A stretch of 64,000 nt of DNA from Okamejei kenojei. Lineage: Eukaryota. The notes beneath the pieces are model-generated. The model did not search any database. It had not been told where the DNA came from and saw only the letters and a program-made list of their open reading frames with translations. The DNA lies in assembly GCA_035221665.1 (NCBI GenBank), contig CM069148.1, forward strand, positions 28,768,001-28,832,000. Reading direction: 5' to 3'. The first letter of the stretch is position 1. Each line of letters opens with the position of its first letter. The position numbers were made by a program, and so were the translations under genes. Positions 9,900-56,430 of the stretch are shown here, in pieces.

Positions 9900-10031
9900 T
9901 GATCTTGACAAAGACTTTTGGAATAACAATGACAGCACAGTACAAAAGAAATGGAGTTCCTACCCTCCAAAGGAGTTCATTCTAAACATTTCGCCTTATG
10001 CACCTTATGGTGACCCTCGTCTTTCACTCAA
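9900..10031 (+). CDS. SYT7: Synaptotagmin-7 alternative linker exon (44 aa, 'beta' insert)
   Basis: Polypyrimidine tract + TAG acceptor at 9897-9899; GTGAGT donor at 10032. Length 132 nt, phase 2/2. Translates (N)DLDKDFWNNNDSTVQKKWSSYPPKEFILNISPYAPYGDPRLSL, nearly identical to the recalled mammalian Syt7 beta insert. Confidence 0.95.
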
Positions 10032-10252
10032 GTGAGTTGCTTTCAATGGTTTGGTTGTCTATCGTATGTAAAGCTTCCTTCCCCTGTCTTTTACCCATCC
10101 ACCCAATCACCCACTCACGCCCACTCCCAAACCCTTTCGCAAACCCCATGGGTCAGCTGACCACATGGGAACGAACAACCCTCCTGTCCCTGCGCCTTGC
10201 TTGAAGTTCGCAACTGCAAACCTTTCCCCACCTGATCCATCTTCCTTCCCAG

Positions 10253-10313
10253 TGTGGGAGAGCAGAGGGTTGCTCGTTGAGGCCTGTACCCATATCCTCT
10301 CAATTACACTGTG
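10253..10313 (+). other. SYT7: Candidate stop-codon-containing SYT7 cassette exon
   Basis: Acceptor CCTGAT..CTTCCTTCCCAG. Phase-2 reading gives (N)VGEQRVAR*, TGA at 10278-10280. Donor candidate GTG|GTAAAA at 10314; the 3' boundary is uncertain. Confidence 0.5.
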
Positions 10314-10510
10314 GTAAAAAAAAAATGCTGCTTATAAAAATGGCTGTCTGATGGAATTTCTTTGGCTGCTTAATCCCCTTTTTGCTGTTTTATTTTTGAG
10401 CTTTGGAAGAAAGGTGTGCACTGATGTGCTTTAGCGGCAGATCTGATTTACTCCGATCTTCTACTAGGGCTGACTCATTCTCTGTCCACTCTGCTTCCTG
10501 TCCGTACTAG

Positions 10511-10714
10511 TGGCTCTCTCATGTCCGGTAACAAAGCTCCAGTAGCTGAAAAAGAAACACGCACGGCCGAGAAGCAAACCCGCAGCAACAGCATGAAGAG
10601 CAGTGGATCTTCCAACAGTAATCGGGGTGAAGCTGCCAATGGGAAGGTTGGGAAAGGTGGGCGATGGTACACAGTGCAGAGTCTCCTAGCGTCGGGCAAG
10701 CTCAACCAAGCTAA
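10511..10714 (+). CDS. SYT7: Synaptotagmin-7 alternative linker exon (68 aa)
   Basis: CTGAC branch point at ~10470, pyrimidine tract, TAG acceptor, GTGAGT donor at 10715. Length 204 nt, phase 2/2. Translates (N)GSLMSGNKAPV...GKVGKGGRWYTVQSLLASGKLNQA; both ends match the recalled mammalian exon NGTLLSGAKV...GRGRWRMVQSHLAAGKLNLS. Confidence 0.9.
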
Positions 10715-13189
10715 GTGAGTTTAAACGAGTAGTTATGTACTTACGAGACTGTGACAGCCAAAGAAATCAGTCTTTCGATAATGATTAATGATATTTGCAG
10801 GAAATTGAAACGTGTCTTCACCACATGACTCCCTCCCCCCAGCAGCACGGGACCCCATCATTTGTCCATTACACGTACACATGCATGGGATTTAAGAGTG
10901 TTTTATACTTTCTAATTGTATCCATTCACTTGCCATCACGATCATTTGCTTTATCATGCCCACAATACCATTGAAAGTCGCACTAACACTTTACTTGGCA
11001 TGCTGTGGATCTAATACATGATGGATGTTCATTGCAGCTTTTTGGGCCTGTTTTCTCCCTGTAACCGACTGGAAGTACTTTGGTGGGAGGTAAATTGTTT
11101 TTTTTTCCCCCAATAGCAGCATGCTGAGGAGGGCAACCACAAATGACCTGTCCAACTTTGTGACCAGATTGTTAATACATTGACAAATATGACGTTTGAC
11201 ATCGAGCAGGCAGGGAAACAGTACTTTCTCTGATAATATTGTTTTACTAGCTTTGCTATCAATAGATGCAATGTGTATTATCAACAAAATTATTCCATGT
11301 ACAATGTTGTTCATAAAAAAAGTATATTCCCCACATTTATTGCTTTATTCCAATCAGGTCCTTGATTTTGTAAATGATCCTGTAGAAGAAATAAAAAATA
11401 ATCATCAAGCCAAGTTAGGAGGGAACATTTTAAAATAGCAAGTATTTTCAGTGAGATAATTATGAAAATTAAATGGATCTTGTGCCAAGCAAAAAGCATA
11501 GCTTGGACAAACTTGAGGCAAGTTTAGGATCACATGTTTTCTAAAAATAAAAGTAGGTTATGTATTTAGAGCGAACCATATCCTTTTACATGTGGATGAG
11601 GTATTTGCAATCACCACAGAACTTTATTGCCACATCATGTTCTCTTAATAGCTTGCCAAATGCTACATCATCAATGGTCTGTGACTAAATGCACTATAAC
11701 AAACAATTTTAAATAGCTCATGAAGGTCATTCATGCATATTTGCTTCTAGTGTCCTGTTCTTCTCTGGTGGAAAAAATAGTGAGAATATAGCCTTTTTTT
11801 TTCTTCTTCTGTGGTAAGCTGAGGGACAATTGTGTATACAGCAGAACTTGTAGTGTATGTAGTATTATGTTTCATTATTGAAATATTTTGTGTCAGAAAA
11901 TTTACACAAAGATTAACTTCTCGTCAAAATACTTCCTTGATATTAATTCTGAATCTTTATACTGCACATAAAACGCTATCTTAGAATTTTACCAATTTTA
12001 TTACTTGTAGTTAATTATGTACGAGAGCAATGTTATAAAACAGTATGAGTCTGCTTGTCCAAAATGTGATGATAATGGCATGCCCCTGCTGGACCTGTTA
12101 TGGGGATGACTTTATACTGACGCTGCATTTTTTAGATAGGCAGTAGATATAAGGAACTGCATATGCTGGTTTTCAAAAAAAAGACATAAAGTGCTGGAGA
12201 AAACTGTTATTCAGCAGCAGGCAGTATCTACGGAGAATAAGGATTTCACCACTGGATTTCTTTTGCCAGTCTTGTAGGTGCAGGGTTTAATATATTGGTG
12301 AATTGTTCAATTTGATTCAGTATAAAAATGCAAGAATGTGACTTGGAACAGCGGGTGGGTGTGTATGCATCTTGAAAGCACAAGTGCATCTGCATAAGGT
12401 GCCAAGAAGGTTTGGGGACACAGGGAAGGTGAAGGGTCATGGCAGGACTGCAGGTTTGCAGATTGGGGGTGTAACTAGGTACAAGATTGTTTTAACAGAC
12501 TTGGAGGAGTAACTCTAATTTTCTGGGCCAGACAAGTAACAGTGAAATTAATGCTCTGGGGTCTTGCTTCATAAGACCACAAGCTAACATTGGGGAGAGC
12601 ATGCATACCCTTTAATAATATATTCTTACATAGCGTGTACTATAATGCATGTCCTTGATTTTCACTTTAAAAAGTGTTCTAACACTTGGATCAGGTGCAA
12701 GCTTCGTTCATGCAACAACAAACCCTTGGGAAGGTTGCTACAATTGACAATCATTCCCCCCACACCTCCCCATTTCAGGGCCGCTAATTCTGCCCAGACA
12801 TCCTCAGAACCATGCCTCTTTACACAAGCTAATTGCTTATTACCATGAGCCAGCAGCACATTAAACATCATTGCAATGCATGAATTAGCAAGAAGGAGTC
12901 ATACAACGTGAGTTATTTATGAAACAAAACCACCCAGAGTGTGCTTAGCTTGACAGGGACTCTTTGCCACTGTCCACATTGCCAGGCTGTTCTCGGACCT
13001 AGGGTTTCCAAGTCCCTTTTGATTTCCCTGCCTCCTTTTGCTACAAGCTGAATAATTAACATCTGAAGTGACTCACAAACCTCCAACATTTTGTCGAATT
13101 ATTATTCCTTCCCCTTGGGTGATAATCCATTTCTGTGTTGAATAGCACTTAGAAGAAGTACTGAGGTTATCAAGAACTCAGATGGGTGG

Positions 13190-23010: not shown

Positions 23011-23373
23011 CTTGGATGAGCCATCTTTGTCAGCAGCCTCCACGCTAGAACACATATCCACTCCGCCAGGGGACCAACCGTCGAAATGCCCACGACCTCG
23101 GACGCTGCAGAGGCAGCAGAGCCTCCAGCAGCCATTGCAGCAGCATAGACCTACCCACCACCAGCCTGCCACCAGCCAGAGCCTCGGGCAGCTTCAGTTC
23201 CAGCAGCAGACAACCTCGGGCAGCCGGTCTCCCTACAGAGCCCAGCAAAGGGCGGGCTGTACAGCAAGCACGCGCAGTCGCACGGCAGGCGGACGCAGCC
23301 GTTCCAATCCCGGGAGCTGGGACTACGTCATGGGACAGCTCCGTAATCGAGGGTTAGATATGAAGTCTTTCCT
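23011..23373 (+). CDS. SYT7: Synaptotagmin-7 alternative linker exon (121 aa, 'gamma' insert)
   Basis: Long pyrimidine tract + TAG acceptor at 23008-23010; GTAAGT donor at 23374. Length 363 nt, phase 2/2. Translates LDEPSLSAASTLE...KCPRPRTLQRQQSLQQPL...GGRSRSNPGSWDYVMGQLRNRGLDMKSFL, matching the recalled Syt7 gamma insert. Confidence 0.95.
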
Positions 23374-33409: not shown

Positions 33410-33532
33410 TGAAGGCCGGATGGTGGTCCTGTCCCTGGTTATGGGTCTGACAGAACAGGATGACTTTGCAAATATCCCTGATCTACACACCAGCAACAGC
33501 CAACAAATCCAAGGCACGCAGTCAGACAAAAG
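33410..33532 (+). CDS. SYT7: Synaptotagmin-7 alternative linker exon (41 aa)
   Basis: CAG acceptor at 33407-33409; AG|GTATGA donor at 33533. Length 123 nt, phase 2/2. Translates EGRMVVLSLVMGLTEQDDFANIPDLHTSNSQQIQGTQSDK(R), versus recalled mammalian EGRMVVLSLVLGLSEQDDFANIPDL. Not in the ORF track. Confidence 0.94.
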
Positions 33533-56294: not shown

Positions 56295-56430
56295 GTTGCC
56301 CACTGGAAATAAGCCAGTGAACACCACTCCTGTGCAAGGGCAGGTTTCTCAGGATGATTTGGACAGAAGAACAGAACCTCGCTCCTCAGTCTCAGACTTG
56401 GTTAACTCCCTTACAAGTGAGATGCTAATG
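56295..56430 (+). CDS. SYT7: Synaptotagmin-7 constitutive linker exon preceding the C2A exons
   Basis: TTTGCAG acceptor; ATG|GTGAGT donor. Length 136 nt, phase 2/0. Translates [45 protein letters not shown], versus recalled human [45 protein letters not shown]. Confidence 0.97.

What the first reader, a model, noticed from the sequence alone, without database searches (positions are those of the whole stretch)
10221..10320. Candidate poison/truncating exon inside the short 479-nt intron between two cassettes
Seen: branch-like CCTGAT, a pyrimidine tract and CAG (10250-10252). The putative exon begins with T like its neighbours, completing AAT=Asn, and reads VGEQRVAR then TGA (10278-10280). A possible donor is GTG|GTAAAA at 10314. 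This intron is repeat-free, unlike the rest of the locus. Established (from memory): rodent Syt7 has an alternatively spliced linker exon with a stop codon that gives C2-less truncated forms. Inference: this is its ancient orthologue, giving a C2-less membrane stub or an NMD target.
Basis: partly seen in the sequence, partly recalled or inferred. Interest (0 to 1): 0.7.

Follow-up and report, generated by a model that had tools for sequence, protein, structure and literature searches.

The report
Ancient RNA-gated stop exon in SYT7
In a skate-like fish's gene for the nerve calcium sensor synaptotagmin-7, a 61-base stretch with a stop codon lies in the same intron as a known mouse and human mRNA-destroying exon and shares short sequence with land vertebrates and a bony fish; it is likely the same exon, predicted to be held silent by a small RNA stem, but no transcript containing it was seen.

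Summary
The motifs are there as described. The gene is SYT7 of a skate-like fish. The candidate (10253-10313) lies between two linker cassettes, the intron where mouse and human carry an annotated 123/125-nt NMD exon. Its acceptor is the best in the intron, but its donor is weaker than all 11 real SYT7 donors; such a site pair occurs in 7-12% of control tiles. Two results lift it above chance. (1) Bat, yak and gecko gene models have Q-x-GVARFG in this intron, in frame with skate RVAR*G; 0 of 1516 control acceptors match as well. (2) That core is the 3' arm of a 13-pair RNA stem (10170-83 with 10265-78) around the branch point and acceptor; both arms recur in a teleost locus with every pair kept (0 of 1000 shuffles). 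Against: the TGA is not conserved, length and tail peptide differ from mammals, and 6 of 6 RNA-like contig sets with cover skip it. Verdict: probably the skate counterpart of a known poison exon, likely repressed by RNA structure; inclusion unproven.

The parts
9900..10031 (+). SYT7 linker cassette exon (44-codon 'beta' exon), phase-2 ends
   Evidence: 100% match to shark, ray and skate SYT7 proteins; exon ends seen in contigs
10095..10124 (+). Cluster of six YCAY words (NOVA-type motif, name recalled); role untested
   Evidence: 15 of 931 control tiles have as many within 40 nt
10145..10169 (+). Predicted local hairpin just 5' of the stem; a hairpin is also predicted at this place in teleost locus L023
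   Evidence: folds
10170..10183 (+). 5' arm of the conserved RNA stem (5 pairs, 1x1 mismatch, 8 pairs)
   Evidence: inverted repeat I2; pair probabilities 0.63-1.0; 12 of 14 letters shared with L023:2596-2609
10231..10236 (+). Branch-point-like CCTGAT, A at 10235
   Evidence: sequence; function inferred
10237..10252 (+). Pyrimidine tract and CAG acceptor; best-scoring acceptor of the intron, 44 nt free of AG upstream
   Evidence: AG unchanged but tract 4 nt shorter in a close relative
10253..10313 (+). Candidate 61-nt poison cassette exon (stop at codon 10 after the junction; length also shifts the frame)
   Evidence: gecko gene-model peptide aligns over 10261-10313 and ends at the last exon base; inclusion not observed
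10265..10278 (+). 3' arm of the RNA stem, inside the candidate exon; same letters as the core shared with amniote GVARF
   Evidence: 11 of 14 letters shared with L023:2742-2755
10278..10280 (+). In-frame TGA, 33 nt before the exon end; not conserved in amniote models (Phe)
10314..10319 (+). Weak candidate donor GTAAAA
   Evidence: 0.8 bits against 2.4-6.9 for 11 real donors; GT kept after a 2-nt deletion just upstream in a relative
10511..10714 (+). Next SYT7 linker cassette exon (68 codons)
   Evidence: 100% match to Amblyraja radiata SYT7; contigs

Best explanation
The stretch 10253-10313 is a conserved element in the SYT7 linker intron and is likely the skate counterpart of the mouse/human NMD cassette exon, predicted to be kept mostly skipped by an RNA stem and, when included, predicted to send the message to nonsense-mediated decay. 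Shown: same intron as the mammalian exon; a usable acceptor, a weak donor, a stop and a frameshift; a core shared with amniotes; two complementary arms shared with a teleost; skipping as the only splice form seen. Inferred: the 5' arm (10170-10183) is transcribed first and pairs with exon positions +13 to +26 as the exon emerges, looping out branch point, tract and AG and masking the exon's first half, so skipping is the default. Inferred: a protein binding an arm or the nearby YCAY cluster, or a change in transcription speed, opens the stem, the exon is included, and the stop, with at least five junctions downstream, triggers decay. This would tune the amount of long-linker SYT7 mRNA rather than make a new protein. 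Rough odds by step: conserved functional element 0.9; spliced in as a regulated exon in skate 0.65; stem controls inclusion, given that, 0.7-0.8.
For: Mouse cassette chr19:10422394-10422517, flagged NMD_in, between the 132-nt and 228-nt exons; human counterpart 125 nt; PSI 0.46/0.41 in mouse cortex (PMC13078869 supplement rows). Bat and yak models splice the first cassette to N-QDGVARFG, and a gecko model has QAGVARFG before the second cassette (3 of 352 stored proteins). In-frame anchored match in skate beats all 1516 control acceptors, for GVARFG (11.3 vs max 9.2) and for Q[DA]GVARFG (9.8 vs 9.2). The gecko peptide alignment ends at 10313, the candidate's last base. Stem: pair probabilities 0.63-1.0 in a 600-nt context; a duplex this strong at 13 of 500 control acceptors. 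Teleost L023 holds both arms in order, 23 of 28 letters; 0 of 423 genomic stretches and 0 of 1000 shuffles reach that. All 13 pairs hold: 1 compensatory change, 2 to G-U, mismatch at the same place; five random changes would leave them standing in 0.9-9% of trials. The G-U pairs work on the sense strand only. A close relative has no substitution in arms, AG, exon body or TGA. Precedent: breaking RNA stems raises poison-exon inclusion in BRD2/BRD3 (PMC10789245, abstract and section 17).
Against: Contigs join across the candidate (10031 to 10511) in 6 of 6 RNA-like runs with cover and none carries it; in 4 of the 6 one unbranched contig spans both cassettes; in the deepest set the skip has depth 262 of 320, unlike the roughly 40% inclusion in mouse brain (contigs drop rare forms, tissue unknown). 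Donor weaker than all 11 real ones. The relative has indels in the tract (branch A then only 14 nt from the exon) and beside the donor. TGA not conserved; length and tail differ. The amniote evidence is peptide from three computed gene models, one labelled UNVERIFIED_CONTAM; that this core lies inside the annotated 123/125-nt exon is inferred. The core was picked after seeing the skate: unanchored tests are weaker (23, 36 and 80 of 930 tiles for the cores; 74-251 of 930 for whole peptides). Only two sequences carry both arms, so the pair-shuffle control says nothing (236 of 500). In L023 the stem's probability ranges 0.01-0.67 with the context folded, and 5 of 27 control tiles fold locally as well as this intron.
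Confidence: 0.52

Rival explanations
1. The conserved thing is the RNA stem, an intronic splicing element that influences the two flanking linker cassettes; skate does not use the stretch as an exon, and the mammalian NMD exon arose later on top of it.
For: What is conserved between skate and teleost is the two arms, not the exon ends; weak donor; skip-only contigs; stop, length and tail not conserved.
Against: A same-phase AG sits 7-16 nt before the core in skate, bat and yak; the gecko alignment ends at the skate donor; the teleost also has a stop-giving acceptor between the arms (L023:2695).
Confidence: 0.27
2. The exon is included and its main product is a stable 121-residue, C2-less membrane stub that acts on vesicle recycling, as reported for a rat truncated form.
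For: Rat truncated variants exist and one enhanced recycling (review passage citing Sugita 2001 and Virmani 2003); 119-122-aa mammalian entries.
Against: Tail peptide not conserved; stop is followed by many junctions; mouse and human event flagged NMD_in; no protein with this tail among 17 hits of 38-123 aa or among the cartilaginous-fish cluster members listed.
Confidence: 0.07
3. A chance pseudo-exon in an ordinary short intron.
For: Site pairs this good occur in 7-12% of control tiles; repeat-free state is common; whole-intron alignments to the teleost loci are not significant (11-97 of 200 shuffles); whole intron folds no better than shuffles (z -0.02).
Against: Anchored amniote match (0 of 1516) and joint two-arm teleost match (0 of 1000) are independent of each other and land on the same 14 letters.
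Confidence: 0.08
4. The conserved letters are a DNA-level regulatory element (enhancer with palindromic sites), unrelated to splicing.
For: A near-palindrome at 10145-10169; short conserved blocks.
Against: The changes between skate and teleost give G-U pairs on the sense strand and mismatches on the other, which points to RNA pairing.
Confidence: 0.05

Closest known systems
Mouse/human SYT7 NMD cassette (mm10 chr19:10422394-10422517; hg38 chr11:61546534-61546659; likely source of the 122-aa entry F5GX00)
   Same: Same gene, same intron, same phase, premature stop before the C2 domains; short core shared with amniote sequence in this intron.
   Different: 61 nt vs 123/125 nt; flanking introns 221/197 vs 506/267 and 517/279 nt; tail VGEQRVAR vs PLFLRR; stop at another place; about 40% inclusion in mouse cortex vs none seen here.
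BRD2 exon 3b and BRD3 exon 5b, poison exons controlled by pairs of conserved complementary regions (PMC10789245)
   Same: A conserved pair of complementary arms beside a poison exon, predicted to repress inclusion.
   Different: In BRD2 both arms are in the flanking introns; here one arm is inside the exon and the loop holds only the 3' splice site. Tested by experiment there, only predicted here.
Human SYT7 cryptic exon released by TDP-43 loss (bioRxiv 10.1101/2025.08.28.672801; PMC10441763)
   Same: A stop-giving exon in SYT7 that lowers SYT7 levels.
   Different: Described as unannotated and disease-specific; its position was not given in the passages read, and no link to this intron was shown.

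Membership tests
Poison (NMD-inducing) cassette exon | Usable acceptor and donor | tested here: inconclusive
   Acceptor within the range of real sites, donor below all 11 real ones
Poison (NMD-inducing) cassette exon | Premature stop more than 50 nt upstream of the last exon junction | tested here: met
   TGA 10278-80; 33 nt to its own junction, but at least five further junctions follow
Poison (NMD-inducing) cassette exon | Inclusion seen in transcripts | tested here: inconclusive
   0 of 6 RNA-like contig sets with cover; all 6 skip; contigs drop rare forms; the one raw-read run had no cover
Poison (NMD-inducing) cassette exon | Inclusion rises when NMD is blocked | not testable with these tools
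   no such data set for this organism was found
Orthologue of the mammalian SYT7 NMD cassette | Same intron and phase | tested here: met
Orthologue of the mammalian SYT7 NMD cassette | Sequence homology with the annotated 123/125-nt exon itself | tested here: inconclusive
   9 of 22 letters at the exon start; Phe in place of TGA in 3 of 3 models; 61 vs 123/125 nt
Poison exon controlled by conserved complementary regions (BRD2/BRD3 type) | Two complementary arms conserved across species with pair-keeping changes | tested here: met
   Skate and one teleost locus, 13 of 13 pairs kept, 1 compensatory; only two sequences
Poison exon controlled by conserved complementary regions (BRD2/BRD3 type) | Arms in the flanking introns, looping out the whole exon (as in BRD2) | tested here: not met
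   3' arm lies at exon positions +13 to +26; so 'works like', not the same layout
Poison exon controlled by conserved complementary regions (BRD2/BRD3 type) | Breaking the stem changes inclusion, compensatory mutation restores it | not testable with these tools
   needs a minigene or antisense experiment

The most novel reading that the evidence does not exclude
SYT7 dosage in all jawed vertebrates is gated by an RNA switch older than the split of cartilaginous and bony fishes: a 13-pair stem that hides the acceptor of a poison exon in the linker region. The human exon would carry the same stem, so an antisense oligonucleotide against one arm could lower SYT7, and one that blocks the exon could raise the long-linker forms.
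Probability: 0.35. Interest if true: 0.62.

Novelty: new variant of a known kind. Interest (0 to 1): 0.42.

Why it matters
SYT7 is the high-affinity calcium sensor linked to asynchronous release and short-term plasticity, and its linker splice forms differ in behaviour (PMC12636619, search-listing abstract and passages). The stop exon in the linker is annotated in mouse and human, but nothing found here explains what controls it or how old it is. If the reading holds, the exon dates to the common ancestor of jawed vertebrates, its conserved feature is RNA pairing rather than a peptide, which favours decay over a truncated protein, and a two-mutation minigene can test the control directly. Poison exons and RNA-structure control of them are known kinds, so the gain is for one gene.

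Tried and rejected
No listed holder is on record as RNA. Of 17 RNA-like and 6 DNA-like runs listed, 7 and 1 were laid; raw-read run X21 had no cover (about 6% read), so it is no test. Missing cover of the intron in contig sets is not counted as evidence: expected contigs are visibly missing from X3 and X2, and the tool leaves records out. An 81-codon open frame through the intron (10072-10314) has no protein relative, and a relative's indels break it: not coding. No PLFLRR-like exon behind any of 2698 AG sites from 10032 to 56300, and no place in the intron fits the back-translated tail better than background (16 of 22). Whole-intron alignments to L022 and L023 are not significant; L022 lacks the arms within the 768 nt held, and neither contig reaches the second cassette, so a teleost donor could not be checked. 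Rfam: one chance-level match, E 0.97. Whole-intron fold z -0.02; the local z -3.4 was for hand-picked ends and is not exceptional. A frog-like ORF upstream of the second cassette resembles 10325-10445 by eye but is not significant (81 of 930). Lower substitution rate in the intron than in both flanks of the relative (2/471 vs 15/749, p 0.02) disappears against the downstream flank alone (p 0.44). Scans of genome contigs and viral contigs gave no vertebrate locus; 5 of 7 metagenome loci (L024-L028) were weak unrelated hits and were dropped. Earlier findings: nothing in 3 look-ups. Sugita 2001, Virmani 2003, Fukuda 2002 and two other ids were not held. No SYT7 row in the supplements of PMC11188260 (12 of 13 files) or PMC8052449 (5 files; its full list of complementary regions may not be among them); PMC10573301 supplements could not be read. 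So the stem may already sit unnamed in a catalogue that I could not see.

Full report
Setting. The window lies in a 2.76-Gb genome at G000:C18:28768001-28832000 and the stretch is single-copy. It covers the linker region of synaptotagmin-7: exons at 9900-10031, 10511-10714, 23011-23373, 33410-33532 and 56295-56430, with the transmembrane exon upstream and the C2 exons downstream on the same contig. Both exons around the finding are 100% identical to Amblyraja radiata SYT7 protein, so the organism is skate-like.

The observation. All motifs are at the stated coordinates. With a matrix built on 12 real SYT7 acceptors (tract) and recalled general frequencies (other positions, donor), the acceptor at 10253 scores 4.0 bits, the best in the intron and above the real acceptor at 10511 (1.9). 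The donor at 10314 scores 0.8, below all 11 real donors. A pair as good is found in 84 of 693 control tiles of 479 nt, 47 of 693 with a branch-like motif. The lack of repeats is not special: 37% of such stretches in the window have none.

The mammalian counterpart. A review states that rat has Syt7 variants of 122-687 aa, some lacking the C2 domains (PMC5987875, passages). Human F5GX00 and entries from chimpanzee, bats, lemur, bear, colobus and hamster end in the first cassette plus N-PLFLRR or N-PLFLHR. Supplement rows of PMC13078869 place a 123-nt NMD_in cassette in mouse between the 132-nt and 228-nt exons, 506 and 267 nt from them, with a 125-nt human counterpart and PSI 0.46 and 0.41 in cortex. 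That this cassette encodes PLFLRR is my inference. The skate candidate has 221, 61 and 197 nt. The position matches; length and tail do not, and no place in the skate intron fits the back-translated tail above background.

A shared core. Among 352 stored proteins, three computed gene models carry extra sequence from this intron: Pteropus alecto and Bos mutus continue from the first cassette with N-QDGVARFG, and a Gekko kuhli model (labelled UNVERIFIED_CONTAM) has QAGVARFG before the second cassette. The skate candidate reads EQRVAR*G in the same junction frame. Searched freely over the intron, the core's best hit ends at 10283, and 23 to 80 of 930 control tiles score as well depending on the core used; whole peptides are not significant (74-251 of 930). 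Anchored in frame behind an acceptor, 0 of 1516 control acceptors reach the skate score, for GVARFG and for Q[DA]GVARFG. The gecko peptide aligns from 10261 to 10313, ending on the candidate's last base. The core was chosen after seeing the skate sequence, so these figures flatter it somewhat. The stop is not shared: all three models have Phe there.

An RNA stem. The same letters, 10265-10278, are complementary to 10170-10183: 5 pairs, a 1x1 mismatch, 8 pairs, with probabilities 0.63-1.0 when 600 nt are folded. The loop holds the branch-like motif, the tract and the AG; an inner helix is predicted to pair the AG as well. A duplex this strong occurs at 13 of 500 control acceptors. A metagenome scan gave two teleost-like SYT7 loci among 7 hits. 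In L023 both arms are present in order about 820-980 nt after the first cassette, 23 of 28 letters; none of 423 genomic stretches or 1000 shuffles reaches that. All 13 pairs are kept: one A-U to G-C, two changes to G-U, and the mismatch stays in place. Five random changes would spare the helix in 0.9-9% of trials. An acceptor that would give a stop lies between the teleost arms (2695); the contig ends before any donor. Limits: two sequences only, the pair-shuffle control is uninformative (236 of 500), the teleost stem's probability is 0.01-0.67 by context, and L022 shows no arms in the 768 nt held.

Transcripts and a close relative. Seven of 17 RNA-like runs were laid. Six had cover; all six join 10031 to 10511 and none carries the candidate. 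In four, one contig spans both cassettes; in the deepest set the skip has depth 262 against 320 and 310 for the two exons. Contigs lose rare forms, tissues are unknown and the tool drops records, so this shows that skipping dominates, not that inclusion is absent. One DNA-like run of a close relative has no substitution from 10136 to 10502, but a 4-nt deletion in the tract, a 2-nt deletion before the donor and an insertion at 10180-10193 that leaves the 5' arm whole. Its exon would be 59 nt, still with the stop.

Mechanism. Shown: position, motifs, stop, shared core, complementary arms in two lineages, skipping. Inferred: the stem forms as the exon is transcribed, hides the acceptor and makes skipping the default; opening it lets the exon in; the stop, followed by many junctions, triggers NMD and lowers long-linker SYT7 mRNA. 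The precedent is BRD2/BRD3, where breaking such pairings raised poison-exon inclusion and compensatory mutants reversed it (PMC10789245, abstract and section 17); the layout differs, since here one arm is in the exon. The main rival is that the stem is an intronic element and skate does not use the exon.

What is in print. The mammalian exon is annotated. Nine searches of the held library (listings and abstract starts read) showed no paper on a fish SYT7 poison exon or an RNA stem there. PMC2823689 (passages, part 1 of supplement S18, 7 of 18 Syt7 places in S3) lists the coding linker exons and, in the parts read, no stop exon. PMC10947677, PMC12636619, PMC10441763 and bioRxiv 2025.08.28.672801 were read as passages and add nothing on this intron. 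The primary rat papers were not held, and catalogues of conserved complementary regions could not be read in full, so the claim of novelty is limited.

Verdict. Observation confirmed apart from the repeat argument; interpretation partly supported; a conserved RNA stem is the added finding. New variant of a known kind, interest 0.42.

Noticed in passing
window 10715-10830: One contig of run X5 goes from the end of the second cassette (10714) into sequence like window 10801 onward (about 25 of 30 letters), behind TTTGCAG. This suggests an 86-nt GT-AG intron and a second truncating exon that would read KKLKRVFTT-stop in this genome. The acceptor scores poorly (-3.6 bits); a genomic deletion in that species is not excluded.
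   Followed up: partly
window 10372-10389: TTAAT plus a long pyrimidine run is kept in run X5's intron contig, and a crocodile gene-model tail (NPFFAL) back-translates onto it at 16 of 18 letters (6 of 930 control tiles). Possibly a second conserved intronic element or distant branch point.
   Followed up: partly
window 10401-10413: Possible 13-nt microexon: poor GAG acceptor after a strong tract, then the best internal donor of the intron (AAG|GTGTGC, 4.1 bits).
   Followed up: no
window 10425-10540 and 10364-10520: Runs X1 and X5 each hold an unspliced contig over the 3' part of the intron only; pre-mRNA or intron retention. Upstream acceptors at 10435, 10441 and 10468 would all stop at the TAG of the normal acceptor.
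   Followed up: no
L022:1375-1438 and L023:1776-1838: The two teleost SYT7 copies share about 65 nt of intron after the first cassette's donor, including a second donor-like GTAAG about 20 nt downstream; the skate does not align there above chance.
   Followed up: partly
window 10095-10124: Six YCAY words within 30 nt, between the first cassette and the stem (15 of 931 control tiles); several teleost read-through ORFs are similarly rich in Pro, Thr and His codons here.
   Followed up: partly
window 10180-10193: The close relative X15 has a 27-nt insertion with a 14-nt duplication; its letters resemble a motif found 7 times in the 264-kb genome sample, probably a truncated mobile element.
   Followed up: partly
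window after 10714: Run X4 continues from the second cassette into 15 letters that match no acceptor in the window or the 30 kb downstream that was fetched.
   Followed up: partly
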